IMG/VR virus record: IMGVR_UViG_3300030102_005689
Span: 1-58,657 of that record
Direction: 5' to 3' (one strand)
Source of the DNA: a virus
Lineage: Duplodnaviria > Caudoviricetes
DNA: 58,657 bases
Shown one piece after another: positions 744-52,550 of this stretch. The notes below the pieces were generated by a model. It did not search any database and was not told where the DNA came from. It was given only the letters and a program-made list of their open reading frames with translations. A program made the translations under genes and the position numbers. Numbering within the stretch: the first letter of the stretch is position 1; each line of letters opens with the position of its first letter.

Positions 744-1691
744 ATGTCGAGATCACTAGGTAGCCGTATTCGTAGAACACGCAAGCAGAGGGGCAAGAGC
801 GCACCCCCACTTAAAGTCAGTATGGGGGGCACAGCTAAACGGGGTAGGCAAGCCCCAGGCACACCCCGCACACCGAGACGTGCCGCTCCTTTATCTAAGG
901 CGGCACAGAAAAGTGCAGCAGATACAGCCCAACGCATGAATGAGATGGGGGCTATAAGGGCACAACAATCGGCTCGACCACAGCCCCAAGCCTCTAAGGC
1001 TCCGGCACCTATGGCGTCCCCCAAATCTACGGCTACAACAGCAGCAGATTTCGCTGATGTTGGTTATGGCACTTCCATGAAACCATCTACGGCTACGACT
1101 GCACAAGATTTAGCTGATGTTGGTTATGGCACTTCCATGAAACCATCTACAGCGACAACGGCAGACGATTTAGCTGATGTTGGTTATGGCACAGCTACAA
1201 AACCAGCCCCACAAGAGTCTGCTATGGGCACACTCCGCAGCCGTATTGCTGGTGCAGCAGTATCTCCGGTATCGGTTAAGCCTATTGAATCTGCGACACC
1301 GGACCCAGATATCCCCGTTCCCGATGTGTTTACGGACGTATCCCTTGCGGACATACCGGAAGGAGCCGCACTACCGGATATCCCAGTAACTCCACAGCCT
1401 GCGTTTAATACAGGGGAACAAAGGGAAGCCTTTCAAGGGGCACTTGATGCAACTGTAGACAGTCAACTGGAGATGCTTCAACGTGGCGCGGATATACAAG
1501 GTTTATATCCTGGCGATCCACTTTACCCTACTAAGGAGAGCGTGAGTGCTAATGTCCAAGCTCAGTTGGAAGCATTAGCTAATGACCCTGAAGCACAGAT
1601 GGAATTTTTAAGAAAAATGAATGAGCCAGATATTTTTGGTTCCTCTCTCCTTGAGCGTTCTCCCGAAGGAGGCTTACTGGGTGGTGGCTAA
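744..1691 (+). CDS. Hypothetical low-complexity protein with 20-aa tandem repeats
   Basis: 315-aa ORF with basic N-terminus, STATTAxDxADVGYGT x3, acidic C-terminus. Confidence 0.75.
   Translation: MSRSLGSRIRRTRKQRGKSAPPLKVSMGGTAKRGRQAPGTPRTPRRAAPLSKAAQKSAADTAQRMNEMGAIRAQQSARPQPQASKAPAPMASPKSTATTAADFADVGYGTSMKPSTATTAQDLADVGYGTSMKPSTATTADDLADVGYGTATKPAPQESAMGTLRSRIAGAAVSPVSVKPIESATPDPDIPVPDVFTDVSLADIPEGAALPDIPVTPQPAFNTGEQREAFQGALDATVDSQLEMLQRGADIQGLYPGDPLYPTKESVSANVQAQLEALANDPEAQMEFLRKMNEPDIFGSSLLERSPEGGLLGGG
1026..1205 (+). repeat. Three ~60-bp in-frame tandem repeats
   Basis: GCTGATGTTGGTTATGGCAC recurs with 60-nt period. Confidence 0.9.
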
Positions 1692-1700
1692 ATTAGTCCC

Positions 1701-1729
1701 TTGACCCCCCTTAAAATTCCGTTTATCTT
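1701..1729 (+). promoter_or_regulatory. Sigma70-like promoter upstream of the capsid leader
   Basis: TTGACC-17 nt-TATCTT just after the upstream stop codon. Confidence 0.55.
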
Positions 1730-1737
1730 TTTATACG

Positions 1738-1944
1738 TTACAGGAACTAGGTTGCTCTAGCCGTTCAATTTAGTTCAGGTTCCTGTAATAACATATCCAA
1801 GAAGCCTGTGTGGTTGCTCTAGCCCGCCCTAAGTAGTTCTAAGTAACAGGTTTCACACTGAACTAGGCTATTTCCCGCCTATGGGAGATGGCTTGCACCT
1901 AACTATTATTACACGGATCGCTACGCCTATACGGGAGCGGTCTG
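1738..1944 (+). ncRNA. Putative structured RNA or leader of the major capsid gene
   Basis: Two stems each enclosing GGTTGCTCTAGCC...TAGTTC, then two hairpins with GCCTAT at the apex; G-U pairs favour the + strand. Confidence 0.55.
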
Positions 1945-1972
1945 CACTAACCACTTAACCATATTTAATAAA

Positions 1973-3325
1973 ATGGCTGTTAATACATCATGGTCAAATG
2001 ACACCGCCGCGATTAATACCGTCCTCGCTGAAGAGGCAAACCGTATCGGGTCAGATGTCCACAAACGCATACTACACACTTCTCCTTGGATTGACTTAAT
2101 CAAAAAGAGGAGCTTCCCCGATGGAATGGGTTATCAACTCACTTCATTGGTTTATGATCGTTCAGTTCCAACTTACGATGACGAAGGAGCTAACTTAGCG
2201 ACTCACAACACTTGGAAGGCTCTTGGAGTTAATGGTGGTTCCAATGATTTCGGAACTTCTCAAGTTCAGGGTAACCAAGGCATCGCTGGTGCTATGGAGA
2301 CGCAGAATCGTTTCGCCGCTGGTGATTCTACAGGAGCTACTGACGGCATGGGTTTCATTTCCGTGAGCAAGGTTCTCCACACCTACTCACTGAAGAGGCT
2401 CTCCCTTGAGTCCCCTGTTATCTCCCTTGAAGACCTTAGATTTGCGGCTCACCGCACTGAGCAGCTTCGCGCTATTGTTGATCTTCTTTCCCAAGCCTCC
2501 AGGCATTCTTGGGAAGAGCGTTATCGCATGGAGTTTGATCGCCTTGCCGGAAACATTGTTCCTTGCTTGACTTCAGGGACCAAGATTTACGATACAATTG
2601 ATATTAGTGCTTCTACCAAGAAGTCAGGTACTAATACAGATGCTGTTGATTTCAATAATGACTTTGACTCTTCTGGTGTCGCTGCTGACAAGACACCGAC
2701 TGCAAACATCTCCAACGCAATCTTGGATAAGATTTACTATAACCTCGTCCGTAAGGGTGGTGGTGCAGATGCCTATGGCCGTGAAAATGGTCGTCCTGTA
2801 TTTGGTCTTGTTTGCTCTTCGGAGGCTTCTTACCAGCTTCAAACTGAGGCCGGTTTCCGTGACGATGTTCGTTACAACAAGTCTGCTGTTAGCGACCTAA
2901 TTGCACCTCTTGGAATTGAAAAGGCTTTCCGTGGTTTCTACCACTTGATTGACGACCTTGCTCCAAGGTTCAATTCTTCTGGTGATGTGGATCTTGACCT
3001 TGTGTCTCCTTATTCACAGTCTGCTGGTGTAACTACCATGAATTCTGCTTATGACACTGCTACCTTTGAGGCTGCATACGTCATCCACCCAGAAGTCTTT
3101 GAGTCCCTTATTCCTGCACCATTCAGTGCTGGAGCCGGTGTCGATTTCGACGCTGCTTCATTCGCGGGTGAATTCAAGTGGACCAACATCAAGAGTGTTG
3201 ATAAGAACCCTGACGGCCACAACGGCTTCTTCAGGGGTCTCCTTGCTTCTGCTTCCAAGCCGATCAAGACCGACTTCGGTTATGTGATCGTCTTCAAGCG
3301 GGACAGCACTACTCCTGCTGCTTAA
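1973..3325 (+). CDS. Major capsid protein
   Basis: 450 aa, T/C-ending codon bias, downstream of portal and scaffold on the circle, followed by a strong hairpin. Confidence 0.8.
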   Translation: MAVNTSWSNDTAAINTVLAEEANRIGSDVHKRILHTSPWIDLIKKRSFPDGMGYQLTSLVYDRSVPTYDDEGANLATHNTWKALGVNGGSNDFGTSQVQGNQGIAGAMETQNRFAAGDSTGATDGMGFISVSKVLHTYSLKRLSLESPVISLEDLRFAAHRTEQLRAIVDLLSQASRHSWEERYRMEFDRLAGNIVPCLTSGTKIYDTIDISASTKKSGTNTDAVDFNNDFDSSGVAADKTPTANISNAILDKIYYNLVRKGGGADAYGRENGRPVFGLVCSSEASYQLQTEAGFRDDVRYNKSAVSDLIAPLGIEKAFRGFYHLIDDLAPRFNSSGDVDLDLVSPYSQSAGVTTMNSAYDTATFEAAYVIHPEVFESLIPAPFSAGAGVDFDAASFAGEFKWTNIKSVDKNPDGHNGFFRGLLASASKPIKTDFGYVIVFKRDSTTPAA

Positions 3326-3331
3326 TCTAAA

Positions 3332-3360
3332 GCGGGGTTCCTCGTAAAGGGGAACCCCGC
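3332..3360 (+). terminator. Hairpin after the capsid gene
   Basis: GCGGGGTTCCTC-GTAAA-GGGGAACCCCGC; AT-rich tail but no clean U-run. Confidence 0.7.
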
Positions 3361-3387
3361 ATAATTTAATTCAACAAATATAAAATT

Positions 3388-4011
3388 ATGCCAACTTTAG
3401 ATGATATAACAATTCTTCAGACTAACTCCAAAGTAGCTATCAACGACCCAGTTGCGGTTGTTGATAAAAGCTCCTCTGGATCAAGCCGAGTTGAGCAGTT
3501 TCCTTTGGGCTTAATTGCTCAAGGATTTACTACTGCTTGGGTTATTAATTATGATAACCCTAACTTTACTGGGAATTCGGAAACTGCCGCTAGTACTATA
3601 GCTCAAACAATAGATTTACATACTTTTAGTTCTACTGAAAGACTTACGAAAGTAAGGGCTGTTGTGACTGAGCTATTTGCACCCGCTTCTGGTGAGACTA
3701 GTAATGGAATGACTATTGATGTAGGGGAATCGGGAGATACCGATAACTTTATTGATGGAATGGATGTTAGAACAGGAAGTGCAACTCTTTACTCTCAAGC
3801 AGATAACTCTGGCTCTGGTTTAAGTGGAACTATTGCATCTCCAGCGATAGACGATCCTGCTGATCAAGTGTTGAAGTTTACGTTAACTGTAGGTAGTTCC
3901 GATAATTCGGTTCACATTAATGATTTAAGTGCGGGGCAAATAGTAGTTTTAGCTGATTTATATGATCTTGCTGACTACAAAGATTGCGTCCCAAAATTAG
4001 GCACTCTATAA
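3388..4011 (+). CDS. Putative capsid decoration or minor virion protein
   Basis: Ser/Thr/Asp-rich beta-type 207-aa protein immediately after the capsid gene. Confidence 0.55.
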   Translation: MPTLDDITILQTNSKVAINDPVAVVDKSSSGSSRVEQFPLGLIAQGFTTAWVINYDNPNFTGNSETAASTIAQTIDLHTFSSTERLTKVRAVVTELFAPASGETSNGMTIDVGESGDTDNFIDGMDVRTGSATLYSQADNSGSGLSGTIASPAIDDPADQVLKFTLTVGSSDNSVHINDLSAGQIVVLADLYDLADYKDCVPKLGTL

Positions 4012-4033
4012 TCAGTAACAATCCATAATTCAC

Positions 4034-4083
4034 AAGAATCCCCGATCCTCTAACACTAGAGAGGGGATCGGGGTTCTTTATTT
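4034..4083 (+). terminator. Intrinsic terminator
   Basis: AAGAATCCCCGATCCTCT...GGGGATCGGGGTTCTT followed by TATTT. Confidence 0.75.
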
Positions 4084-4099
4084 ATAACCAATTGATACC

Positions 4100-4540
4100 A
4101 TGCCTAAAGATCCAAATACTGGAGAAAGACTACGGGACGAAGAAGGAAATATAATCCCTTACGAGGGGGAGACTATGGAAGAGGCTGAAGCTGATGCCCT
4201 TTCTACAGAGATGGATTTCCCTGCCAGGGTTGAGTCCTTAATGCTTGAGAAGTCGGGAGAAGAGATGCCTGTTGAGGCTTCTGAAGAAGAGCTACCGGCG
4301 GAAGAGGTTTCTGAGGAGCTTACTGAAGAGCAGGTTCAAGAAGCTGCTCAAGCTCTATACGCTCAAATGTATGGGGCAGATGCTCCAGTTGACCCGAATG
4401 TTGTCGCCATGATTGCTGCTGAGATTGCAGCTGACCCTTCTATCTTGGCTGATGGCAACATTGTTGCAGCTTTGGAGTTATTACCTAAATTAAGGTCAGA
4501 TGGAACACCTCCTAACGAGGACCAAATGATCCCTACTTAA
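4100..4540 (+). CDS. Hypothetical acidic protein
   Basis: 146-aa ORF in a tightly packed operon. Confidence 0.75.
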   Translation: MPKDPNTGERLRDEEGNIIPYEGETMEEAEADALSTEMDFPARVESLMLEKSGEEMPVEASEEELPAEEVSEELTEEQVQEAAQALYAQMYGADAPVDPNVVAMIAAEIAADPSILADGNIVAALELLPKLRSDGTPPNEDQMIPT

Positions 4541-4541
4541 A

Positions 4542-4901
4542 ATGAATAATCCATTACAGGGCGGACCCCCGCCAGTTGCCTCCAAGGGGGAGGAGCTTCA
4601 TGCGGAGCATTCTGATGCCTCGCAGGATTCTAGGATGTCAGCTACTGACCTCCGCGCCGTTCACGATAAGTCCTGCGAATTGGTCAAGATGATTGAGTCC
4701 GGCAATTTTGAAGAGAAACTTTCCAAGGGCTGGGTCCAGTCAAAGCTGACCCTGGCCAACGACTACTTAACCGCTATTCATGATTATATTGTCCACGACA
4801 AAGAAGCCACCGATTCTCATGGGCATGGGGATGACGGAGGAGAAGGTGGCAACATGAGTGGCGGTTTCCTTATTTCGATTGAGAAAAAACTAGGCAAGTA
4901 A
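4542..4901 (+). CDS. Hypothetical protein
   Basis: 119 aa, packed operon; WVQSKLTLANDY helix motif. Confidence 0.75.
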   Translation: MNNPLQGGPPPVASKGEELHAEHSDASQDSRMSATDLRAVHDKSCELVKMIESGNFEEKLSKGWVQSKLTLANDYLTAIHDYIVHDKEATDSHGHGDDGGEGGNMSGGFLISIEKKLGK

Positions 4902-4902
4902 A

Positions 4903-5439
4903 ATGGCACTTAGCGCATCCCAGTTAAAGCAAGTTGTATCAGCCCGTGTAACTGGCGTGGGTGCTACTTCAAACCACGTTATTGGCGGGACGAACACGAT
5001 AACCGATGACGTTGATATTGCTTTTGGTTTCACGATGAAGTGCGGTCATGCCGATAATAGTGTTATACTCAATTACAGGGATGCTTATTCTTCAAACAAA
5101 CCCACGTTGGAACACAGTAGTGGTGCTAATACCACTATAAATTGTGACCAAAAGATAGGTGCTTTTGAGAGTCAAGAGATCATAGAAGACCCAACTTTTA
5201 CTGATATTGCTGCAATAACCACGATAGTAGCTATTTACTTTGAAGCCCCTGCCAGTAACAATGGCACGATCAGTATCGCGGGAACTCCTAACGATATAGG
5301 TGATGTGGATTTCAGTGCGGCAGGGGGATCATTCCTACTAACTCCACGCTTTACCAACACCACCTCTACCAAGCACGTTATAGATTTTAATGCTATTGGA
5401 GACATTCTTAAAGTGATAGTCTTAGGTAAAGGAGCATAA
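4903..5439 (+). CDS. Putative virion structural protein
   Basis: 178 aa, beta-rich composition, structural module. Confidence 0.6.
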   Translation: MALSASQLKQVVSARVTGVGATSNHVIGGTNTITDDVDIAFGFTMKCGHADNSVILNYRDAYSSNKPTLEHSSGANTTINCDQKIGAFESQEIIEDPTFTDIAAITTIVAIYFEAPASNNGTISIAGTPNDIGDVDFSAAGGSFLLTPRFTNTTSTKHVIDFNAIGDILKVIVLGKGA

Positions 5440-5450
5440 CCCCAACACCC

Positions 5451-6983
5451 ATGCCAATATCCTCTAACAGACGGCAACGGGTAATTGAATTCGCAACCCC
5501 GAAGGTTGCTGATCTTGTCGTTGTTGAGCGCGTAGATGCCAGTAAGAATGTAAATTCGGCGGCAACCGCTGATGACAATGCTTACGGCACAGCACACCCT
5601 GATACTACTCGATTCCCCAACTTCAAGTTAGCCCTTATCAAGAACGGGGATAACGACCAAGGGCAATTTCAGGATTGGTATTATGTAAAAGACCGCGCCA
5701 ACCAAGATGACTATAATTGGGAGTTCCAAGCGGCTGGCGCAGGTAGCCCACGCTTTGATACCGTTGTCAGGACGTATGTTTTACCCAGAGCCGATGGAGG
5801 TGGAACGGGAGGGGTAACTCATTTTGATGAATCACTTCCTGCATTGGCTTCGGCAATGCCTACCACTACAAACGATCCGTTTGGTGACGGCATAGGGGAC
5901 GCTGATCCGAATACGGACTCTAGTTATATCTTGTTTGAAAAGAAGCAGGTTCGATCTGGTGACGAAACACTAGATACCCTGTTCGTTGTTGAGCAACGGG
6001 TTTACGTTAAGCGAGTCACTATTGTAAGTGTTGATTCGGATAAACAGTTTCCATATAGTGGATACAATGCATCTGGTGACCCTTACGGGGGTTTAATTTC
6101 TAAGGAGACGCTCTATTATAGAGATGAGGTTGTGTATGCGACAGTCGATTTCTCTGACTCTGAGGAGGATACTGCTGGGATACAAACTGGAGGATTCCGT
6201 ATTTTCTCCGTGCATAATTCAGATGCCGCCAAAAAGAAGGCTGAGTATATATTTACCGATAAGGATGCGGTTTACCAGTATAATCCAGATGGAGGTTCCT
6301 CCCCCTCCACATATAATTTTTGGGGTATTGATCCAAATGGTGTTATGCGTGAGGGCAAGCAGTTGTCCGATAACTGGTATGCATTATCCGAAAGACAAGT
6401 AATACGCAAAGACAGCGATGGGTTGGTAGCTGAATATTTCACAAACCAGAACATGAGTTGGCCTGCTGTGTTCAGTAATTTATACGCCACTGTCTGGAAC
6501 CGTAGGGACGGGGGCAAGCATACAAATGTTTACCCCGTGTATAAGCGCGAGGTATACAATGGCCCTACAAAAACCAAGGTGCAGATTTACTGGCAGAAAG
6601 CTCCTTTTTCAGAACCAGACACAGTTGACGATACGGATGTAACTACTTTATGTCTCCTAAAGCCCATGGAGCCTATGGAGATGGAGTTCGTAACACCAAA
6701 CTGGCGGGTAAAAACAAAGCCCAGTTTGCATGGCATTGTAACTGTAACATATACCAATGGCACTGAAGACCCTGTATGGGACTATGGTGGGTATAAGGCA
6801 ACGTGGAAGCCTACTAACTACACTGATTGGCCTGATGAGATTGTAATCTCTGATTCTCAGGAAGCCTTTAGGGGAGGCTACCTCCGCACGAAAGTCACGG
6901 CATATAAGCCGAACATAACCACTACTGATGATGCCGCCCGTCATAGCACTGACAAGACCAATCCCCCTGTATTAGAGGCCTAA
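5451..6983 (+). CDS. Putative tail or virion protein
   Basis: 510 aa in the structural module; aromatic/Asp/Thr-rich. Confidence 0.55.
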   Translation: MPISSNRRQRVIEFATPKVADLVVVERVDASKNVNSAATADDNAYGTAHPDTTRFPNFKLALIKNGDNDQGQFQDWYYVKDRANQDDYNWEFQAAGAGSPRFDTVVRTYVLPRADGGGTGGVTHFDESLPALASAMPTTTNDPFGDGIGDADPNTDSSYILFEKKQVRSGDETLDTLFVVEQRVYVKRVTIVSVDSDKQFPYSGYNASGDPYGGLISKETLYYRDEVVYATVDFSDSEEDTAGIQTGGFRIFSVHNSDAAKKKAEYIFTDKDAVYQYNPDGGSSPSTYNFWGIDPNGVMREGKQLSDNWYALSERQVIRKDSDGLVAEYFTNQNMSWPAVFSNLYATVWNRRDGGKHTNVYPVYKREVYNGPTKTKVQIYWQKAPFSEPDTVDDTDVTTLCLLKPMEPMEMEFVTPNWRVKTKPSLHGIVTVTYTNGTEDPVWDYGGYKATWKPTNYTDWPDEIVISDSQEAFRGGYLRTKVTAYKPNITTTDDAARHSTDKTNPPVLEA

Positions 6984-8203
6984 TGCCCGAAGAACCTAAA
7001 GATTTTCCTCAGAGCGGGGCAGATGGTTCCGGTCAAATTGGCAAGCAGGATTGGGAGTTACCCAATTCTGTATCCGCGCCCCCTGATGGTTTTTCCCCGA
7101 ACGTGGAGACTGCCTCCTATGGGGGATACGATGAATCCATAACGGATTACCACCCACCCGTTGAGCAGGCATCAGAAAGCCTCCACCCATTTAAGGTAAC
7201 ACGGTATACAAATGAAGATGACGAGGTAAAAGTTCGTGTGCGCCTTGGCAGGTTTTATTATTCAAGCTCAGTGATGACTGTAGCAAAGCTCCCCCCACAT
7301 GGGCCACATTATGGTGCATTCACTTTGGCACAAGGCGGTGACCCCGAACATAGCCACAACGTAACCATGGATGCTGGATCATCTCATTGGGCGGATATGA
7401 ATGGAGTGGATCAAGCTGGGATGGGTGGCACTGCCGCGGGTTTTTGGCCTATAAATGTAGGCACTAGGGACGGCGAAGGAGTGGAAACTGGGGGCAAAGC
7501 GGCAAATCCCTATTTTACTTTCACGGGGATGGGTGTTTCGGGCTATTTTGAGCAGAATGACACCCTTGGCAAAAGCATCCCTTATGCCTTTAGGTTACCC
7601 TTGGGGGTCGAACCAACCACATTCACTGGTCGGGTTAATGAAGCGATTTCGGACTATATTGAGTTTGATTCTATACCGGAGGCTTCTTCTGTGTGGTTCC
7701 GTTATGTCCTTGAGGATAACGGGACTTCAATTGATTTAGCCAATTATGAGGCTCAAGATGTGGTCTATGTTAAAGATGTAGTAACTTCAGGTATTCGCGC
7801 CCTCCCCACTAATCATGGCCCCCTTCAGCCATTGATTTTAGCTCCACTACATGACGGTAACAACACCGTCCCTGATCTAGTCCGTGGAAATCCTACTGGC
7901 TGGGAGACACTACCCCCCGGTATGACTACCTCCACCTTCGGTTCGCCTCCGCCCAATTTAGGTGAGGGGGACGAGGCAGGTGAAGCTCATTATCTTAAAA
8001 TGGGGTGCTACTATATAAGATTAGCCTCACTCCCACCAGAAGGTGATGAAGAAACTTATGGGGGAAAAGTCCAGCAGGTCATTCACGATAATATTTACCA
8101 CTCCACGTTTTGGCTTGCAAATAGTGGTGTAGTCCTATCACAGCATGATATTAATGGTAGAGGTTATGGTGCGGCGAACCGCGCTCCTGATCCTGACGCA
8201 TAA
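6983..8203 (+). CDS. Putative tail or virion protein
   Basis: 406 aa, TAATG-coupled to the previous gene. Confidence 0.55.
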   Translation: MPEEPKDFPQSGADGSGQIGKQDWELPNSVSAPPDGFSPNVETASYGGYDESITDYHPPVEQASESLHPFKVTRYTNEDDEVKVRVRLGRFYYSSSVMTVAKLPPHGPHYGAFTLAQGGDPEHSHNVTMDAGSSHWADMNGVDQAGMGGTAAGFWPINVGTRDGEGVETGGKAANPYFTFTGMGVSGYFEQNDTLGKSIPYAFRLPLGVEPTTFTGRVNEAISDYIEFDSIPEASSVWFRYVLEDNGTSIDLANYEAQDVVYVKDVVTSGIRALPTNHGPLQPLILAPLHDGNNTVPDLVRGNPTGWETLPPGMTTSTFGSPPPNLGEGDEAGEAHYLKMGCYYIRLASLPPEGDEETYGGKVQQVIHDNIYHSTFWLANSGVVLSQHDINGRGYGAANRAPDPDA

Positions 8204-8211
8204 CCCACCCC

Positions 8212-8239
8212 TTGAAATAACCCCGATTTCCCCTATATT
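8212..8239 (+). promoter_or_regulatory. Sigma70-like promoter, near-leaderless
   Basis: TTGAAA-16 nt-TATATT, ending 8 nt before ATG 8248. Confidence 0.45.
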
Positions 8240-8247
8240 AACGAGTC

Positions 8248-9228
8248 ATGCCAGCCAAGACAATTACGCAACTATATGATGAGGATTATCTCAGGGATTT
8301 CCTTGAGGCTCCTTATTCTGCTGCCAAGTTCCGTAACGCGCTGAACGAGATAATGCCCCGCATTTACAAGATGGGCTACTGGCGTGAAATGGTTTTAGAG
8401 CATACGCAGAGTGCATCTGACGGTTATGTTTCACTGCCCCACAACACTGACAGTATTGTAGGGGCTGTTATTGATAATAACGCAGTTCCGTCACACTCCC
8501 TTTGGCATGACTATAGGTTATTTGGGACAAATGACAGTGATGACAATATCCTGTCCGCCTTTATTGATGACGGATACGCCAGCACTTACAGGGATATATC
8601 CACGACAGCTGCTGACCAATACCAAATTCAGTTAAAGTCGATCTCGCCTGAGACTTATTTACCCAATGGGGGAACTATAAATGTAGCTGTTCGTTATTCC
8701 ACAGCCGCCTTACCCGATGGTTACCTAAAGGAGACTATGGTGCTGAACACAGGTTCTGCCACTACAAAAAATTCTACTGCTACAACAATAAACAAAATCC
8801 ATCAAATTGCGTACAACAATATCCCCGCTGAAAGCGGCGTTCAAATAATAGCAGTTCACCAGGCTCCGTCCCCTTTGACTAATGTCGTTTTGGGCGAACT
8901 CCCAGCGGGTTCTGGTGTTCTGCGTTATCGTCGTTTTAGGATAGGGGACACATCTTCCAATTCTTCCGCGCACATGCTACTCAAGCGTCGATGGGTTGAC
9001 GCAGTAGATAGTTCAGAAACAATCCATGTGCCTGACAGAGCCATTTTAAAACACGCCCTTTTGGGCAAACTTTCAGAAGACAACGCCGATGTACAACGTG
9101 CCCAATATCATTGGGGCATATGCAAACAGCTTTTGGAAACCGACATGGATTCCTACAGGGGTTCCACTAGGCCAAGAGTGCATATTGCGCCCGAAGGTGC
9201 CAGCAGTGGTATGTCAGGCATGTATTAA
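8248..9228 (+). CDS. Putative head-tail adaptor or tail tubular protein
   Basis: Helix-beta-helix layout (NALNEIMPRI...VSLP...AILKHALL) typical of adaptor proteins; position in module. Confidence 0.5.
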   Translation: MPAKTITQLYDEDYLRDFLEAPYSAAKFRNALNEIMPRIYKMGYWREMVLEHTQSASDGYVSLPHNTDSIVGAVIDNNAVPSHSLWHDYRLFGTNDSDDNILSAFIDDGYASTYRDISTTAADQYQIQLKSISPETYLPNGGTINVAVRYSTAALPDGYLKETMVLNTGSATTKNSTATTINKIHQIAYNNIPAESGVQIIAVHQAPSPLTNVVLGELPAGSGVLRYRRFRIGDTSSNSSAHMLLKRRWVDAVDSSETIHVPDRAILKHALLGKLSEDNADVQRAQYHWGICKQLLETDMDSYRGSTRPRVHIAPEGASSGMSGMY

Positions 9229-9251
9229 TTTCAAACAAACAATAATTAGCT

Positions 9252-9566
9252 ATGGCTACATCAAATATAGACAAACAATCCTTCGGAGAAGCGGGGGCAA
9301 CCATGTTAACAGGCACGGAGGGCGTAGCAAAAGACATATGCGCCATTCTTGTTATTGAGGACGCAATCTTCGATGGTCATGGTAGCGACACCAGTGATAA
9401 GTCCATATGGGATGAATTAACGGATTCAGCGACTAATGGAAAAAAACTTTTACGAAGTGATTCTGCCGCTGATGGTGTAACTGTCCCTGCGGGGATAACA
9501 ATTTATGGGCAATTCCGGTCGGTTAAGCTCCGCTCAGGCACAGTCCTCTGCTACCACGGCGCATAA
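9252..9566 (+). CDS. Small virion protein (putative)
   Basis: Ends in PAGITIYGQFRSVKLRSGTVLCY, a beta-rich motif seen in phage structural genes. Confidence 0.6.
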   Translation: MATSNIDKQSFGEAGATMLTGTEGVAKDICAILVIEDAIFDGHGSDTSDKSIWDELTDSATNGKKLLRSDSAADGVTVPAGITIYGQFRSVKLRSGTVLCYHGA

Positions 9567-9572
9567 AGAACC

Positions 9573-10538
9573 ATGGCTCCCCGTTTAGGATTAGGTGGCG
9601 GTGTATCCGCTGACCCAGCGAGTGGGTTGTTTGCCAGCACACCATTGCTGTTGGACACTTACCCGAACGCTCACATAGCGTATTCGGTTCGTAAACTACG
9701 CACTGAATATACGGGTCATGCCATGAAGATTAGGGTTGATGCGTCACCTGACAGGGTAGCTGATGTAGCCTTTGACGATGACGGCTTCGTATCTGCCAGT
9801 TCAAAGGTATATAATAGGGATGACGGGGGGACTGAAGGGGTCACTCTTGCGGCTTTTGTAGATACAGACAATGAAGTTTATGTGCATACATGGTATGACC
9901 AGTCAGGTGAAGGTTCTAATGCAACTGATCGGGCGGCTGATTTTAGTGTGAGTGTAGACCCTGCAAACCAACCCAAAATTTACACCAGTAATAGTCTAAT
10001 CACAGATGATACTGGGTCGGGAACAGCAAGAGCTGCTCTACAATTTGATTCATCCGACCGTCTTCACGTCCCCAACGATGGGTTGAGTCTTGGATCAACT
10101 TCCGTATTCTCACTTTTTCGGCATAACAATACGAGCAATCATACAGCTTGGTCACTTGTCTATAGCGCAGTTCCAGCTAGATATTATATTATGTATCAAC
10201 TCAGCAGTGAACTGAAATGGTATTATGATAATGCCATTGCGACCTCACTAGACCTTAACCCTTCCGGCTCTGGAATTCCTAACATACGGAGATTAGTTTC
10301 AACATTAGCTGGCTCTTCTGCTCAAACTATGATCGTCAATGGGACTACCATTTCTGACGCTTCCCCAAGTAACGCTACAACCGCATTAGCTGGCCACGTT
10401 TCGTATTCGGCTCTAGGTTTTTCCTTCACCTCTGGTCTTACAGGTTTTATGCAGGAGTTCATCGTTTACGACTCCGATCAGACATCGAACAGTGCAGGGA
10501 TTACATCTGCAATAAACACCGTTATGGAGGTATACTAA
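9573..10538 (+). CDS. Tail or receptor-binding protein with concanavalin/LamG-like (arabinofuranosidase-B-like) domain
   Basis: AYSVRKLRTEYTG...WYDQSG...NQPKI...GFMQEFIVY motifs. Confidence 0.7.
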   Translation: MAPRLGLGGGVSADPASGLFASTPLLLDTYPNAHIAYSVRKLRTEYTGHAMKIRVDASPDRVADVAFDDDGFVSASSKVYNRDDGGTEGVTLAAFVDTDNEVYVHTWYDQSGEGSNATDRAADFSVSVDPANQPKIYTSNSLITDDTGSGTARAALQFDSSDRLHVPNDGLSLGSTSVFSLFRHNNTSNHTAWSLVYSAVPARYYIMYQLSSELKWYYDNAIATSLDLNPSGSGIPNIRRLVSTLAGSSAQTMIVNGTTISDASPSNATTALAGHVSYSALGFSFTSGLTGFMQEFIVYDSDQTSNSAGITSAINTVMEVY

Positions 10539-10771
10539 TGAATTATTTGATAATGGATAGTGAGCAGGAAGCTACCGCTCGTTCTGAACAAGCGGCGATT
10601 GACAAAAATATTACTGGTTACACCACCATTTGGGGTTTTATCCCTGACCACAATTCGGATAAAGCCGCTCTTTGTATTCATGGAGATTACCTCTACCTAC
10701 TAACAGAGGACGAAAAAGACTCTCTCGTAGATGAACTGCCCGAAGGTTGGATTAAAAACCCGTTTGAGTAA
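10538..10771 (+). CDS. Hypothetical protein, possible tail-fibre chaperone
   Basis: 77 aa, TAATG-coupled to the fibre-like gene. Confidence 0.7.
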   Translation: MNYLIMDSEQEATARSEQAAIDKNITGYTTIWGFIPDHNSDKAALCIHGDYLYLLTEDEKDSLVDELPEGWIKNPFE

Positions 10772-10950
10772 TGAACACCGGAGAAATCATAACCAAAGGA
10801 ACGACAGGCATCGCTGGCTCAGTTGTGGCGGTTCTCTCACCTTATCAAGAACACATGGAGTGGGCGATTCAAGTATTAGGAGGTCTTTTAGGAATTGCAG
10901 TGGCCGTTGTTTCGCTGTATCATCTGTTAAAGAACAAGAATAAAAAATGA
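10771..10950 (+). CDS. Small holin-like membrane protein, 59 aa (not in ORF track)
   Basis: MNTGEIITKGTTGIAGSVVAVLSPYQEHMEWAIQVLGGLLGIAVAVVSLYHLLKNKNKK; coupled to genes on both sides. Confidence 0.7.
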   Translation: MNTGEIITKGTTGIAGSVVAVLSPYQEHMEWAIQVLGGLLGIAVAVVSLYHLLKNKNKK

Positions 10951-11111
10951 GCAAAGACGCTATACTAGGAATCGTAAGACACATCCTCACCTTCGGGGGA
11001 GGCTTTATGACTCAGGCCGGAATCGCATCCGACGATCAGATCACAACTGGTGTATCAGCCATCGTGACCCTCGTCGGACTCGTCTGGTCGGTGCTGAATA
11101 AGAAGAAGTGA
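10947..11111 (+). CDS. Putative holin, 54 aa (not in ORF track)
   Basis: MSKDAILGIVRHILTFGGGF...IVTLVGLVWSVLNKKK; two hydrophobic segments and a basic tail. Confidence 0.75.
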   Translation: MSKDAILGIVRHILTFGGGFMTQAGIASDDQITTGVSAIVTLVGLVWSVLNKKK

Positions 11112-11293
11112 AGTTCTTCCGGTTGTTAACAACCGCACTGGAGGCTTACATTGCGTATGCCAACTGGCGTAAAAGAACCTACGTCTATGACCTGGAAGAT
11201 ACTGTTGATGCTTTGGCTGCCGATGGCAGTCCTGCTGCAAAGTTGCGCCTTGAAAGACTCGCAAAGAGACTTGAACGAGAGCGCGATGTATGA
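11108..11293 (+). CDS. Putative i-spanin (Rz-like) or lysis accessory protein
   Basis: GTGA-coupled to the holin; helical; overlapped by a lipoprotein ORF. Confidence 0.45.
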   Translation: MKFFRLLTTALEAYIAYANWRKRTYVYDLEDTVDALAADGSPAAKLRLERLAKRLERERDV

Positions 11294-11426
11294 CCCACCG
11301 ACAGTAACCCTTATCGAAGGGTTCAAGTATCCTTTTGTCGAAGGGACTTTGATGGGACGAGGGCAGAAGTTTCATTCGGATTATAGCTACAGGCGCGCTG
11401 TTATTATAGGAGGAAGCGGTAAATGA
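11187..11426 (+). CDS. Lipoprotein, putative o-spanin (Rz1-like)
   Basis: MTWKILLMLWLPMAVLLQSC signal peptide with lipobox-like Cys; starts inside 11108..11293 in the +1 frame. Confidence 0.55.
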   Translation: MTWKILLMLWLPMAVLLQSCALKDSQRDLNESAMYDPPTVTLIEGFKYPFVEGTLMGRGQKFHSDYSYRRAVIIGGSGK

Positions 11427-11977
11427 TCGCTTTATGTGTGGGTCACAGCAGACAAGGAGACAGTGGAGCTTATTCTGTTGATGGGACTCCTGAGTATGAC
11501 TACAACTGTAGGTTAGCCGAAGCAGTTGCGTCTAAGCTGTCTCAGGATATACGGGTGTATAGTTCTTACGAAGGCAATGGATACACCGGTGCGATGCGGT
11601 GGTTGTCCAAGAAGCTCAAAAGTGATGGGGCAGAATTTGCTGTAGAGTTGCATTTTAATGCAGCTGGTTCTTCTGCTACTGGCCATGAGTGGCTTTATTG
11701 GAACACCAGTGAGAAAGGCCGTCTTTTGGCTCGTTCGTTACGCGACTCAATGGAGGATTCATTTCCTCAATTAACGAGCAGAGGTATCAAAGCGCGTGGA
11801 AAAGGCTCCCGTGGAGCCAGCTTTTTACGCCTAACCCATTGTCCTGCTGTGATTGCAGAGCCGTTCTTTGGCACTAACCAAGATGATTGGCAATTAGCAG
11901 TCGAACATATGGAGGGGTTGGCTACTGCCATTACAGGTGGTATAGTTCTTTATAACGATTTAGCCAGCAGATGGTGA
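11423..11977 (+). CDS. Endolysin, N-acetylmuramoyl-L-alanine amidase (Amidase_3)
   Basis: VGH...E...ELHFNA...AVIAEPFF zinc-amidase motifs. Confidence 0.93.
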   Translation: MIALCVGHSRQGDSGAYSVDGTPEYDYNCRLAEAVASKLSQDIRVYSSYEGNGYTGAMRWLSKKLKSDGAEFAVELHFNAAGSSATGHEWLYWNTSEKGRLLARSLRDSMEDSFPQLTSRGIKARGKGSRGASFLRLTHCPAVIAEPFFGTNQDDWQLAVEHMEGLATAITGGIVLYNDLASRW

Positions 11978-11983
11978 TAACCT

Positions 11984-12292
11984 ATGAAACTCCCGAAGAC
12001 AGTCACAATCGCTGGAAAGCGGATTAAGCTGATTGTTGAGGAGTTTAAAGGAGCAGATAGTGGCACCTTTGGGGAATATTTTCATGATGACAAGCTGATC
12101 CAGTTGAACACTGGCTTAACTGACGAAGACGCTTTAGAAACACTCCGGCATGAGATGATGGAAGCCAGCCTTTTTATATCTGGATTAGCTTGGGCAGAGA
12201 GGTATGAGCAGGAGTCAGTGGTTCGTTGCATGGAAGAAATATTCTTTCCAGCCTGGGAAACAATTTTAAAGAGGATTCACCGAAAGAAATAA
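11984..12292 (+). CDS. Small zincin-like (ImmA/IrrE-like) protein
   Basis: G..F....IQLN...ETLRHEMMEA; HExxH degenerated to HExxE. Confidence 0.65.
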   Translation: MKLPKTVTIAGKRIKLIVEEFKGADSGTFGEYFHDDKLIQLNTGLTDEDALETLRHEMMEASLFISGLAWAERYEQESVVRCMEEIFFPAWETILKRIHRKK

Positions 12293-12301
12293 TATTTAAT
12301 T

Positions 12302-13426
12302 ATGGCTGCCAGACAATTTTTTACCCCACGAAACAAGGATCTCGCTAAGTCCGAAGTCGGGATTTTCATGACAAAAGAAGACCCCTATGGAGTGGGGGCA
12401 GTAAGTTCTGGCGAAGGTGATAAAGGTGGACCTTCTTTTGGAACTTTTCAAATGCCTAGTGTTCCCTTTACAAAAGGAGGAAAAGCAAAGGTTAGTCTTT
12501 TTGTGGAGCAATTACCTTCCTCTTTATCAATGAGATTTAAGGATAGAGCAGGGAAGTTTTATTCCCCTCAATCGGAGGAATTTAAAAAAGGGTGGCGGGA
12601 CACTGCGAAGGAAAACAACTTACTTTTTGGCCAAGCACAAGAAAAGTATATTTATAAAGGGGGCAAGGACTCCGTTGGCATAGAGGATTATTTAAATAAA
12701 TTTGAGGACATCACAGGCAAAAAAATGGAATCCCTTAGTCCTTTAGGTAAAGATCAAGTTGAGGGTACCTACAACCACATGGGGCATCTAGGACATGGAC
12801 ATGCTAGGGTTGCCAAAGAGCTAGAAGAAAAGGCTAAAAAGAATAACAAACCTTTTTCTGAAGAAGATTTTTTTCAGGCATTTATTAAGTCAAAACTTAA
12901 TTTATTAGAGAAAAATTTTATAGGATCAAAAGATGATTGGCCTGGGCTCAGGAACCGTTTTAACCGCGAGCTTTCTAAATTTTCCCCTAGAGTAGATACT
13001 CCCAACACATCTAGTGCCACTGAAATGGCTTCTGGTTACATGATTAAAAAGGGAGATACCCTTTCGGGGATAGCCCGTAAGCACGGAGTTTCAGTAGCGG
13101 ACTTACAGAAGGTTAATAATATTAAAGGCGACAGGATTCGTGCGGGAGACTCCTTGAGTATCCCTTCCCTAACAGATCCCCCGAAACCTCCAAAAAAGAT
13201 TCTTCCTGAAGCAGGGATACAGCATCAAATACAACAGGGGGATACTTTATATGACTTAGCGCGTAAGTATGGAACAACTGTAGAATCTCTCCAGAAGCTC
13301 AACAAAATTAAAGGAAGTAAAATACGGTCTGGCGATATCATACAAATACCTGAGCCAAGCCAAAAGCCTAAGAAGGTTTCCCCCGAAGTCTCGTTCATAG
13401 ACAGCATAGAAGAAAGGTTAACTTAA
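12302..13426 (+). CDS. Peptidoglycan hydrolase: VgrG3-C-like lysozyme domain plus two LysM domains
   Basis: GAVSSGEGDKGGPSFGTFQM; YMIKKGDTLSGIARKHG and HQIQQGDTLYDLARKYG LysM repeats. Confidence 0.85.
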   Translation: MAARQFFTPRNKDLAKSEVGIFMTKEDPYGVGAVSSGEGDKGGPSFGTFQMPSVPFTKGGKAKVSLFVEQLPSSLSMRFKDRAGKFYSPQSEEFKKGWRDTAKENNLLFGQAQEKYIYKGGKDSVGIEDYLNKFEDITGKKMESLSPLGKDQVEGTYNHMGHLGHGHARVAKELEEKAKKNNKPFSEEDFFQAFIKSKLNLLEKNFIGSKDDWPGLRNRFNRELSKFSPRVDTPNTSSATEMASGYMIKKGDTLSGIARKHGVSVADLQKVNNIKGDRIRAGDSLSIPSLTDPPKPPKKILPEAGIQHQIQQGDTLYDLARKYGTTVESLQKLNKIKGSKIRSGDIIQIPEPSQKPKKVSPEVSFIDSIEERLT

Positions 13427-13432
13427 AGCCAC

Positions 13433-13972
13433 ATGAGCCGCCCACGCAGAGGAAGAAAGCGGTTCAAGCATGTGGATGACCTTGCCGTCTTTACTCCTAC
13501 GGGTGATGACATAGCCCTAGCCCATGAACGCTCTTGTGCCATGGGCATTCTCCCTGGATCTTACACAAGAGGCATGGGAAACCTAACAGGCTGTTTGGGT
13601 GAGATCGCCGTGAATGCCTACTTACCCCGTAGCCGATATGTTGGTAACGAAATATTCACCCATGATCTTGTATATAAGAAACAGAAGGTCGAGGTGAAGT
13701 CCAAGACTTGTAGTGGGCAACCTAAGCCAGATTTCAGTGCTTTTGTTAACTGCAAAAAAGACATCACTCCTGAGAACGATGTCTTTTTCTTTACTCGCGT
13801 GAGGCGCGACCTTGCCAGGGTATACTTAGTTGGTTGGTTATCAACCCCTACTTTCCTTGATGAGGCTACTTTTAGAAAGCGCGGGGACGCAGATGATACG
13901 GGGTTCGTGTTTAAATCTAATGGCTACCAAATAAGCATAGGGGAATTAAACCCACCAAACAGTTTCAAATAA
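13433..13972 (+). CDS. PD-(D/E)xK nuclease-fold protein
   Basis: GxLGE...HDL...VEVKSK motif. Confidence 0.6.
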   Translation: MSRPRRGRKRFKHVDDLAVFTPTGDDIALAHERSCAMGILPGSYTRGMGNLTGCLGEIAVNAYLPRSRYVGNEIFTHDLVYKKQKVEVKSKTCSGQPKPDFSAFVNCKKDITPENDVFFFTRVRRDLARVYLVGWLSTPTFLDEATFRKRGDADDTGFVFKSNGYQISIGELNPPNSFK

Positions 13973-52198: not shown

Positions 52199-52203
52199 TT
52201 GAG

Positions 52204-52550
52204 AATCTCTGAGCGGTCGAGCGCGCATTTAGAAATCTGAGCGGTCAAAAAGAAATTGACGGGCGGAGCGCGCATTAGTGCCAAAATGGCTCAAAAAGGG
52301 CTATTTCCAATACAAATCCCTAAAATGTTTAGAACTTTATCCGTCTGAGCAAACTGAAAACTTTTTTGAGAGGCGAAATGAATTTATTATATAATGTAAT
52401 AAATTCATTTCCTTCTATAGAAAAGTTTTATATAGGGGGGTTGCGTCAAGTTCTTTCCTGTGCTAGTCTGTTCAAGAACTTTTTAACCGCTCATTCCCAT
52501 GACAACCGCTCAGAGATTATCGACCGCTCATTTACAACAAGCAGACCGCT
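52204..52550. other. Candidate replication origin or packaging site: inverted TGAGCGGT repeats around AT-rich palindrome copy 2
   Basis: TCTGAGCGGTC at 52208 and 52236; ACCGCTCA at 52486, 52505, 52523; palindrome 52375-52411. Confidence 0.45.
52441..52469 (+). promoter_or_regulatory. Extended -10 promoter
   Basis: TTGCGT-17 nt (ending TGC)-TAGTCT. Confidence 0.55.

What the first reader, a model, noticed from the sequence alone, without database searches (positions are those of the whole stretch)
1738..1944. Four-domain structured RNA with duplicated motifs ahead of the major capsid gene
Seen: after a TTGACC-17-TATCTT promoter come two domains with different closing stems (1738-47/1779-88 and 1801-09/1846-54). 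Each encloses the identical GGTTGCTCTAGCC (1750, 1812) and TAGTTC (1771, 1834). Two further hairpins with unrelated stems both carry GCCTAT at the apex (1877, 1925). TAGTTCAG (1771-78) is also complementary to CTGAACTA (1858-65), allowing a pseudoknot or switch. Conserved loops on divergent stems, with G-U pairs on the + strand, are typical of functional RNA. Inference: tandem protein- or ligand-binding elements controlling capsid synthesis, or a virion-assembly RNA. I do not recognise it as a known family.
Basis: partly seen in the sequence, partly recalled or inferred. Interest (0 to 1): 0.78.

Follow-up and report, generated by a model that had tools for sequence, protein, structure and literature searches.

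The report
Tandem pseudoknot leader of capsid mRNA
The flagged stretch is a real, strongly conserved folded RNA at the front of the major capsid message of a large group of uncultured ocean phages, built from two copies of one small knotted module that is in no RNA catalogue and whose job, probably setting how much capsid protein is made, is still untested.

Summary
The stretch is the 5' leader of an HK97-fold capsid gene whose model is closest to N4-like phage capsids. The window is a 97%-complete virus record.

The two "domains" are copies of one module. Each has a free-varying outer stem around a near-invariant 26-30 nt core. Both crossing helices and the outer stems are supported by compensatory changes.

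A motif-only scan found 87 viral loci. A capsid homologue follows within 400 nt in 80 of the 80 that can be tested. The knot persists in capsid clades only about 40% identical. No Rfam family matches.

The GCCTAT apexes are not conserved. Hairpin 3 is specific to the window's clade, and hairpin 4 is shared more widely.

Function is inferred. My best guess is docking sites for a trans-acting factor that sets capsid mRNA translation or stability. A partner-free nuclease block and a riboswitch are the main rivals.

The parts
1701..1729 (+). sigma-70-type promoter: -35 TTGACC (1701-1706), 17-nt spacer, -10 TATCTT (1724-1729). The predicted start is about 1735-1737.
   Evidence: 9 of 12. In 53 of 80 unique tandem leaders a match of 9/12 or better lies with its -10 ending 14-25 nt (median 18) before the first G of the first core. 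The start site is inferred, not mapped.
1738..1788 (+). Domain 1. Outer stem P0 is 1738-1747 with 1779-1788. The core is 1750-1778. S1 is 1750-1752 (GGU) with 1760-1762 (GCC). L1 is U1753. S2 is 1754-1759 (GCUCUA) with 1771-1776 (UAGUUC). L3 is 1763-1770. The tail AG is 1777-1778.
   Evidence: R1 28.8 bits, E 5e-6. P0 duplex -16.2 kcal/mol.
1789..1800 (+). Linker between the domains, holding a semi-conserved ACAUAU/ACAUAG motif (1791-1796).
   Evidence: Seen by eye in the leaders printed. Not tested statistically.
1801..1854 (+). Domain 2. Outer stem P0 is 1801-1809 with 1846-1854 (one G-U). The core is 1812-1841. S1 is 1812-1814 with 1822-1824. L1 is U1815. S2 is 1816-1821 with 1834-1839. L3 is 1825-1833. 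The tail UA is 1840-1841. The purine-rich spacer is 1842-1845.
   Evidence: -14.1 kcal/mol; R1 33.1 bits, E 2.9e-7.
1858..1865 (+). CUGAACUA, complementary to UAGUUCAG of domain 1 (1771-1778). A possible long-range or alternative pairing.
   Evidence: All 14 leaders with AACUAG downstream carry the UUCAG tail variant in domain 1. That is one lineage, with no compensatory change. Energy over all leaders is only -4.42 against -3.45 for shuffles.
1864..1895 (+). Hairpin 3: 1864-1876 with 1883-1895, loop GCCUAU 1877-1882. Found only in the window's clade.
   Evidence: 13 predicted pairs, 4 with changes on both sides among 6 sequences, and several G-U pairs. The loop sequence is not conserved.
1914..1944 (+). 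Hairpin 4: 1914-1922 with 1936-1944, plus an inner 1924-1926 with 1931-1933. It belongs to a hairpin class ending in GGAG-YGGUCU that is seen in many clades.
   Evidence: Within the clade only one-sided changes occur (G-U to G-C and the like). It is absent in L014. An unguided MAFFT alignment of the class gave no usable consensus.
1945..1972 (+). Unstructured A/U/C-rich tract up to the start codon, with no Shine-Dalgarno.
   Evidence: Most genes of this phage lack a Shine-Dalgarno.
1973..3325 (+). Major capsid protein gene (450 aa, HK97 fold).
   Evidence: AF2 model, mean pLDDT 73.2. Top Foldseek hits are capsids of N4-like phages DEV, B2, Moo19 and N4, E 2e-11 to 5e-10. No Pfam, PHROG or PDB-sequence hit.

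Best explanation
What it is (shown). This is the roughly 235-nt 5' untranslated leader of the major-capsid mRNA of an uncultured phage with an N4-like capsid. The predicted transcript starts just after a sigma-70-type promoter and at once forms two copies of one module.

Each module has a variable outer stem that encloses an H-type pseudoknot:
- S1 is GGU:GCC (3 pairs).
- L1 is one U.
- S2 is GCUCUA:UAGUUC, made of a G-C closing pair, two pyrimidine mismatches and three Watson-Crick pairs.
- L3 is A/U-rich.

A clade-specific hairpin follows, then a more widely shared hairpin, then about 30 unstructured nucleotides up to the AUG.

How it works (inferred). I think the two knots are docking sites for a trans-acting factor. 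The likeliest candidate is a phage-encoded protein that reports on head assembly, namely the capsid protein or a partner. Occupancy would set how long the capsid message lives or how well it is translated. The logic is the one known for the T4 gene 32 operator, where a 5' pseudoknot nucleates binding. A flush 5'-terminal structure would also shield the message from 5'-end-dependent decay.

The effect is post-transcriptional rather than transcription attenuation.

My confidence that it is a conserved pseudoknotted leader RNA is about 0.95. The figure below is for the docking-site mechanism.
For: Structure:
- Outer stems. Own-partner duplexes average -9.34 kcal/mol (64 unique domain 1) and -8.60 (56 unique domain 2), against -3.89 and -4.52 for mismatched partners (Mann-Whitney p 1.5e-27 and 3.6e-21). 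The reverse-complement strand is weaker (-8.23, -7.16), as expected if G-U pairs form in + strand RNA.
- S2. 100% of cells paired in 61 distinct cores. All 3 pairs show changes on both sides (4, 8 and 13 cells). 0 of 500 shuffles reach the observed score.
- S1. 100% paired in 12 single-knot cores. 92.5% paired in an alignment fitted only to S2. Pair types seen are GGU:GCC, GGU:ACC, GGC:GCC, GAG:CUC, AGC:GCU and GGA:UCC.
- S2 extension. In distant clades the two mismatch positions become Watson-Crick (GCUGAU:AUCAGU, GCUGUG:CAUAGU). G5-C becomes G-U in L008. C6/U swaps to U6/C in both copies of the L012 clade.

Link to the capsid gene:
- 87 loci were found by motif alone. 72 have two exact copies. 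A capsid homologue starts within 400 nt downstream in 80 of 80 testable loci.
- The covariance model finds no other significant copy in the window.
- In 5 near-complete relatives it gives 9 matches, in tandem pairs in four and a single match in the fifth.

Hints for a co-evolving partner and base-specific recognition:
- Helix sequences are frozen within clades although the pairing partners could vary. 394 of about 488 instances are canonical.
- Helix sequences differ between clades.
- Neighbouring genes other than the capsid gene are not conserved.

Against attenuation: only 5 of 80 leaders have a hairpin plus U-run before the ATG.
Against: - No binding partner is identified.
- No protein or RNA experiment exists for this element.
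- The structured part ends about 30 nt before the AUG and does not cover it, so no repression mechanism can be read from the sequence.
- Frozen helix sequences can equally come from base triples inside a compact knot, with no partner.
- Copy number varies: one in several clades, two here.
- The one Zn-ribbon candidate regulator nearby (457-684) is present in only 3 of 80 related loci.
- Transcription is supported only by one 214-nt contig of an RNA library over 1925-2138. That contig could derive from DNA.
Confidence: 0.4

Rival explanations
1. A partner-free RNA shield. The 5'-terminal stem plus knot, present twice, blocks 5'-end-dependent decay (RNase E or RppH access, or a 5'-to-3' exonuclease such as RNase J). 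This gives a long-lived capsid message. It would be functionally like flaviviral exoribonuclease-resistant RNAs.
For: - Domain 1 begins within a few nucleotides of the predicted start. The -10 ends 14-25 nt before the core in 53 of 80 leaders.
- The arrangement is tandem.
- No expression platform is needed.
- Strong sequence constraint is expected for a tertiary fold.
- No terminator and no RBS overlap.
- A search listing shows that flaviviral xrRNAs were studied together with RNase J (PMC5760640; listing and abstract start only).
Against: - A plain 5' hairpin is enough for protection in known bacterial cases (recalled), so it would not explain invariant unpaired bases.
- The fold is a simple H-type knot inside a stem, not the ring-forming three-way junction of xrRNAs (recalled).
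- The host and its RNases are unknown.
Confidence: 0.2
2. A tandem riboswitch. Each knot would be an aptamer for a small molecule that reports host state or infection stage.
For: - A compact H-type pseudoknot with an A-rich third loop, about the size of preQ1-I, SAM-II or guanidine-III aptamers (recalled).
- Near-invariant unpaired bases.
- A 5' UTR location and tandem copies.
Against: - No Rfam hit, even at E 10 on the 501-nt region and E 5 on ten variant leaders.
- No expression platform. The knots are closed by their own stems, lie more than 100 nt from the AUG, and terminators are rare (5 of 80).
- Candidate pocket positions are not universal. The C.U/U.U mismatches become Watson-Crick pairs in distant clades.
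- The element is found only with one capsid gene family, not with metabolic genes. The bacterial genome scan gave no convincing bacterial copy.
Confidence: 0.1
3. A cis-acting antitermination RNA like HK022 put. The nascent knots would bind the transcribing RNA polymerase and make it read through terminators of the 12-kb late operon.
For: - It lies immediately downstream of a strong promoter at the head of the + strand structural operon (1973-13972).
- It has two structured units, as in put (recalled).
- Conservation could reflect contact with the conserved polymerase.
Against: - The core sequence differs between clades, although the polymerase is conserved.
- No terminator follows in most leaders.
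- There is no similarity to put beyond position.
Confidence: 0.07
4. A separate small RNA or decoy acting in trans. Examples would be titrating a host nuclease or defence protein, or an antitoxin-like pseudoknot RNA as in ToxI.
For: - Tandem pseudoknots recall type III antitoxin repeats (recalled).
- Some clades have a hairpin plus U-run after the knots (L060, L057).
Against: - The copies are not direct head-to-tail repeats. They sit in different stems 60-75 nt apart.
- No toxin gene lies nearby.
- There is no general terminator (5 of 80).
- The element is strictly linked to the capsid gene.
Confidence: 0.05
5. A DNA-level element: an operator, a phage-polymerase promoter or a packaging signal.
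For: The repeated invariant 13-mer could be a protein-binding DNA site. N4-type virion polymerases use DNA hairpin promoters (recalled).
Against: - Three sets of helices keep pairing through compensatory changes and G-U pairs that exist only on the + strand.
- The - strand does not fold better than chance.
Confidence: 0.02

Closest known systems
Phage T4 gene 32 mRNA translational operator (5' H-type pseudoknot followed by an unstructured A/U-rich leader; features recalled, mentioned in PMC10690425 passages)
   Same: A phage mRNA leader with a 5'-proximal H-type pseudoknot, followed further down by an unstructured A/U-rich tract that reaches the start codon. In T4 the knot nucleates binding of the gene's own product.
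   Different: - The downstream gene is a capsid protein, not a single-strand binding protein.
- The knot is enclosed by its own stem and is present twice.
- One or two hairpins separate the knots from the A/U-rich tract.
- There is no sequence similarity.
- Binding has not been tested.
preQ1-I riboswitch (Rfam RF00522; features recalled)
   Same: A very small H-type pseudoknot with an A-rich third loop lying along the first helix, sometimes found in tandem.
   Different: - No match to any Rfam model.
- The first helix has 3 pairs, not 5.
- The junction loop is 0-1 nt and variable, so there is no conserved ligand-pairing C.
- The second helix does not overlap an RBS or terminator.
- The gene context is a phage capsid.
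Flaviviral exoribonuclease-resistant RNAs (xrRNA1/xrRNA2; abstracts in the listing)
   Same: Duplicated pseudoknotted modules in a viral untranslated region, conserved in sequence because of tertiary structure.
   Different: xrRNAs lie in 3' UTRs of eukaryotic RNA viruses and use a three-way junction ring. Here the element is a 5'-terminal stem with an embedded H-type knot in a DNA phage. Nuclease resistance has not been tested.
HK022 put RNA (recalled)
   Same: A cis-acting folded RNA of two units, transcribed right after a phage promoter.
   Different: put is two stem-loops without a pseudoknot, and it acts on terminators. Terminators are rare here (5 of 80).
Candidate structured RNAs of IMG/VR (Fremin et al. 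2023, PMC10690425; passages read, supplements closed)
   Same: That study used the same data source and approach. It lists 8,495 unnamed candidates, some upstream of capsid genes.
   Different: The main text describes no tandem pseudoknot capsid leader.

Membership tests
Any Rfam 15 family | Match to the family covariance model at or above its gathering score | tested here: not met
   0 matches in the window and 0 in 20 related loci. 0 at E up to 10 on 1600-2100. The 6 sub-threshold hits in ten variant loci are not on the + strand leaders.
preQ1-I riboswitch | H-type pseudoknot with an A-rich 3' loop | tested here: met
   S1 and S2 are crossing helices with compensatory changes. L3 is A/U-rich.
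preQ1-I riboswitch | Conserved ligand-pairing C in the junction loop and a 5-bp P1 (recalled definition) | tested here: not met
   The junction loop is absent in tandem-type cores. In single-knot cores it is a variable single base (U, A, C, G). S1 has 3 pairs.
preQ1-I riboswitch | Second helix or tail overlaps the RBS or a terminator (expression platform) | tested here: not met
   The knots are closed by their own stems and lie 130-220 nt before the AUG. A hairpin plus U-run occurs in 5 of 80 leaders.
T4 gene 32-type translational operator | 5' pseudoknot upstream of an unstructured A/U-rich tract reaching the start codon | tested here: inconclusive
   The knots and a roughly 30-nt unstructured tract are present. 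Hairpins 3 and 4 lie between them.
T4 gene 32-type translational operator | Bound by the product of the downstream gene, giving autogenous repression | not testable with these tools
   No RNA-protein tool was available. The downstream product is a capsid protein.
Intrinsic-terminator attenuator | G+C-rich hairpin followed by a U-run between the sensor and the gene | tested here: not met
   None in the window leader. 5 of 80 unique leaders have one by a strict perfect-stem scan.
tRNA / tmRNA-like element | Cloverleaf detected by ARAGORN | tested here: not met
   0 genes in the window.
Type III antitoxin (ToxI-like) repeats | Head-to-tail direct repeats of about 36 nt next to an endoribonuclease toxin gene (recalled) | tested here: not met
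   The copies are 62 nt apart, start to start, in different stems. The neighbours are scaffold-like and capsid genes.

The most novel reading that the evidence does not exclude
The module is a prokaryotic counterpart of viral exoribonuclease-resistant RNAs. It would be a protein-independent knot at the very 5' end of the capsid message that mechanically stalls the host's 5'-end-dependent decay machinery. It would be duplicated for redundancy, and phages of several bacterial phyla would use it to keep their most needed mRNA alive.
Probability: 0.15. Interest if true: 0.8.

Novelty: new variant of a known kind. Interest (0 to 1): 0.62.

Why it matters
Structured leaders that control phage head genes are almost unstudied outside T4 gene 32. 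This one is small (a 26-30 nt core) and is backed by abundant natural compensatory mutations. It is present in at least 87 viral contigs and more than 116 metagenome stretches, many from ocean surveys. It is tied to one capsid lineage across hosts with different promoter and ribosome-binding styles.

That makes it a clean candidate for three things: a new phage post-transcriptional control element, a compact RNA tag for protein or nuclease interaction studies, and a sequence marker for this uncultured phage group. None of its members matches the GenBank phage collection searched here.

Tried and rejected
- Rfam, four searches: nothing relevant.
- ARAGORN: no tRNA-like element.
- GenBank phage collection, by DNA and by three capsid proteins: no match, so no cultured relative and no published transcriptome to consult.
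- RNA sequencing runs. Three marine metatranscriptome contig sets were laid. Only a 214-nt contig covers 1925-2138, and a few relatives' contigs lie in the capsid gene. There is no cover over the knots, which shows nothing either way.
- Bacterial genome scan with the motif. Tandem hits occur only on small phage-like contigs binned into MAGs of four different groups, which is not reliable for the host. Single hits (five Methylophaga genomes and others) have no outer stem and look like chance or coding sequence.
- A loose pairing-only descriptor was too permissive: 2,197 hits in shuffled loci. I used it only inside leaders. A stricter 6-pair form hit 47 of 840 shuffled regions.
- MAFFT could not put outer stems, tandem-type and single-knot cores together, distant cores or the hairpin-4 class into one structural register. 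The outer stems were therefore tested by duplex energies, and S1 was tested in separate alignments.
- The covariance model R1 does not reach the most distant clades with default filters.
- Its third hit in the window (52330-52355, - strand, 11.7 bits, E 0.47) fails both pairings.
- The Zn-ribbon protein 457-684 as a universal partner is rejected. It is present in 3 of 80 loci.
- The 1771/1858 switch has no covariation and covers one lineage only.
- Literature searches found no description of this element. Two searches failed on term syntax.

Full report
**1. The observation**

- Promoter-like TTGACC, 17 nt, TATCTT lies at 1701-1729.
- The stems are 1738-1747/1779-1788 (10 perfect pairs) and 1801-1809/1846-1854 (9 pairs, one G-U).
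- GGTTGCTCTAGCC lies at 1750 and 1812. These are the only exact copies in the window.
- TAGTTC lies at 1771 and 1834.
- GCCTAT lies at 1877 and 1925.
- UAGUUCAG 1771-1778 is complementary to CUGAACUA 1858-1865.

The + strand of 1725-1975 folds into four hairpin domains at -66.4 kcal/mol (z -1.86 against shuffles). The - strand is no better than chance (z -0.05).

**2. Surroundings**

The window is a whole virus record, estimated 97% complete. The region is a 281-nt gap between a 315-aa repeat-containing ORF (744-1691) and a 450-aa ORF (1973-3325).

The 450-aa protein has no Pfam, PHROG or PDB-sequence match. An AlphaFold model built on 33 homologues (mean pLDDT 73.2) matches HK97-fold capsids. 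The best matches are N4-like phages DEV, B2, Moo19 and N4 (Foldseek E 2e-11 to 5e-10). So "ahead of the major capsid gene" is right.

Other genes in the window:
- family A DNA polymerase
- DUF5906 helicase-primase
- DUF2800 nuclease
- C5 methylase
- large terminase
- LysM/amidase lysis genes
- a 3030-aa ORF without any family match

No record of the GenBank phage collection matches the region or the capsid protein.

**3. Conservation**

The capsid protein retrieved 80 related viral loci at 40-63% identity. The exact 13-mer occurs twice, 130-270 nt upstream of the capsid homologue, in most of them.

A scan of the viral collection with the motif alone (13-mer, 3-12 nt, TAGTTC) gave 87 loci. Of these, 72 have two exact copies and 15 have one. 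A capsid homologue starts within 400 nt downstream on the same strand in 80. The other 7 end too soon to tell.

In bacterial genomes, tandem copies occur only on small, phage-like contigs of metagenome bins. Single hits lack the outer stem.

**4. Anatomy of one module**

Aligning 92 copies shows an invariant core flanked by sequences that share nothing except complementarity.

*Outer stem.* The stem was tested by duplex energy of each copy's own flanks against flanks of other copies.
- Domain 1: -9.34 against -3.89 kcal/mol (64 unique).
- Domain 2: -8.60 against -4.52 (56 unique).
- Mann-Whitney p is 1.5e-27 and 3.6e-21.
- The reverse-complement strand is weaker, as expected if G-U pairs matter.

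*Core.* Numbering it G1 G2 U3 U4 G5 C6 U7 C8 U9 A10 G11 C12 C13, then a linker, then U' A' G' U U C U A, two helices cross.

C8U9A10 pairs with U'A'G'. In 61 distinct cores every cell is a standard pair. All three pairs show changes on both sides. The variants are CUG:CAG, CCA:UGG, CCG:CGG, UCG:CGA, UUA:UGA, UUG:CAA and CGG:CCG. No shuffle reaches the observed score, and slid registers collapse to 16-45% paired.

G1G2U3 pairs with G11C12C13.
- 100% paired in 12 single-knot cores, with CG, UA and GC at the third pair.
- 92.5% paired in an alignment fitted by the covariance model to the other helix only.
- Further types are GAG:CUC (L044) and AGC:GCU (L080).

*Topology.* Because C8-A10 lie inside the hairpin closed by G1-C13, this is an H-type pseudoknot.

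The second helix is probably six positions long. G5 faces the tail C, which becomes G-U in L008. C6 and U7 face two tail U's. In distant capsid clades these positions are ordinary pairs (GCUGAU:AUCAGU, GCUGUG:CAUAGU). In the L012 clade C6 and its facing U swap identities in both copies.

That leaves L1 as a single U and L3 as the A/U-rich linker. In the single-knot clades L3 holds an extra covarying hairpin (91% paired, 4 of 4 pairs with double changes).

**5. Breadth**

A pairing descriptor finds a core in 78 of 81 leaders of the first set.

With the capsid of the most distant member (L080) as query, 59 further loci were fetched. Of their 42 unique upstream regions, 36 contain the knot at -175 to -206 from the ATG, against 47 of 840 shuffled regions.

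These clades include phages with a clear Shine-Dalgarno and others with a different promoter style. The element therefore follows the capsid lineage, not one host type.

Neighbouring genes are not conserved. The Zn-ribbon ORF 457-684 recurs in 3 of 80 loci, and the scaffold-like ORF in none by tblastn.

**6. The rest of the leader**

A sigma-70-type promoter (9/12 or better) lies upstream in 53 of 80 unique tandem leaders. Its -10 ends 14-25 nt before the first core. The outer stem of domain 1 therefore begins within a few bases of the predicted start. The start site itself is not mapped.

Hairpin 3 (1864-1895) exists only in the window's clade. There 4 of its 13 pairs show double changes among 6 sequences.

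Hairpin 4 (1914-1944) belongs to a class ending in GGAG-YGGUCU that is present in many clades. Within the clade it shows only one-sided changes, and it is missing in L014.

The GCCTAT loops are not conserved.

The 1771/1858 complementarity co-occurs with the UUCAG tail variant of domain 1 in 14 leaders of one lineage. It shows no compensatory change and only a marginal energy signal overall.

A hairpin followed by a U-run before the ATG is found in 5 of 80 leaders by a strict scan. The last 30 nt before the AUG are unstructured and lack a Shine-Dalgarno, like most genes of this phage.

**7. Is it anywhere else in the genome?**

A covariance model of the core (R1), run without filters, scores the two copies at 33.1 and 28.8 bits. 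The next hit scores 11.7 bits (E 0.47), and it fails both pairings on inspection.

In five near-complete relatives the model gives nine matches. Four of the genomes have a tandem pair and the fifth has a single match.

**8. Known families**

No Rfam 15 family matches at gathering thresholds in the window or in 20 related loci. Nothing matches at E up to 10 on the region itself. Nothing relevant matches at E up to 5 in ten variant loci. ARAGORN finds nothing.

Full-text searches found no description. One paper lists 8,495 unnamed candidate RNAs from the same viral collection (PMC10690425). I read the passages that the term search returned.

Earlier notes of this scan describe what appears to be the same kind of tandem capsid leader in other genomes. 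I treated these as leads. My analysis was made independently on this window's relatives.

**9. Mechanism**

*Shown:* a conserved, + strand, multi-domain RNA with two pseudoknot modules, tied to the capsid gene.

*Inferred:* it acts after transcription starts and without a terminator or RBS-occluding platform.

Two features suggest base-specific recognition:
- The helices are frozen in sequence within clades yet different between clades (one search compared).
- The capsid gene is the only conserved neighbour.

The likeliest reader is a co-evolving phage protein, in the manner of the T4 gene 32 operator. I put this at 0.4.

The same facts fit a self-contained tertiary fold that shields the 5' end (0.2). 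A riboswitch (0.1) is weakened by the missing platform and by non-universal core positions. A put-like antiterminator gets 0.07, a trans-acting RNA 0.05 and a DNA element 0.02. All three fit less well.

**10. Verdict**

It is an uncatalogued RNA family of a known general kind. Its function is open and directly testable.

Noticed in passing
window 28281-37373 (+): A 3030-aa ORF with no Pfam or PHROG match. Its size recalls the virion RNA polymerase of N4-like phages, whose capsids are the closest structural match of this phage's capsid protein.
   Followed up: partly
window 52199-52520: An intergenic region with four copies of the heptamer ACCGCTC/GAGCGGT, two in each orientation, which looks operator-like. 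The weak third hit of the knot model (52330-52355, - strand, 11.7 bits) lies here but does not satisfy the pairings.
   Followed up: partly
window 744-1691 (+): The ORF just upstream of the leader carries three tandem repeats of about 20 aa (..TATTAxDxADVGYGTSMKPS..). It sits where a scaffold gene would be. No homologue was found by tblastn in the fetched loci.
   Followed up: partly
window, starts of 29 ORFs: Most genes, including the capsid gene, lack a Shine-Dalgarno sequence. The host probably initiates translation without one.
   Followed up: no
L001, L002, L007, L009, L011, L013, L061 (about 60-130 nt before the capsid ATG): In the single-knot clades the knot is followed by a second conserved element: GAAGC .. 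GUCGC-CUGCUUCU-GCGAC. The hairpin stem covaries, and its invariant loop GCUUC is complementary to the upstream GAAGC.
   Followed up: no
L184, L186, L191, L196, L200 (last 30 nt before the ATG): In the Shine-Dalgarno-using distant clades a mini-hairpin pairs half of the AGGAGG with an upstream UCCU. It covaries (AUCCU/AGGAU, ACCC/GGGU, GCCCU/AGGGC). This is a possible translational control absent from the window's clade.
   Followed up: no
L088, L090, L092, L094, L095 (Methylophaga chromosomes): Five Methylophaga genomes share one exact match to the 13-mer plus TAGTTC at a homologous place. It has no outer stem and looks like chance within a conserved, probably coding, stretch.
   Followed up: partly
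L012, L023, L058 (both knot copies): One clade changed C6 to U and the facing tail U to C in both copies at once. Either a pyrimidine pair swapped twice in parallel, or a shared reader changed its specificity.
   Followed up: partly
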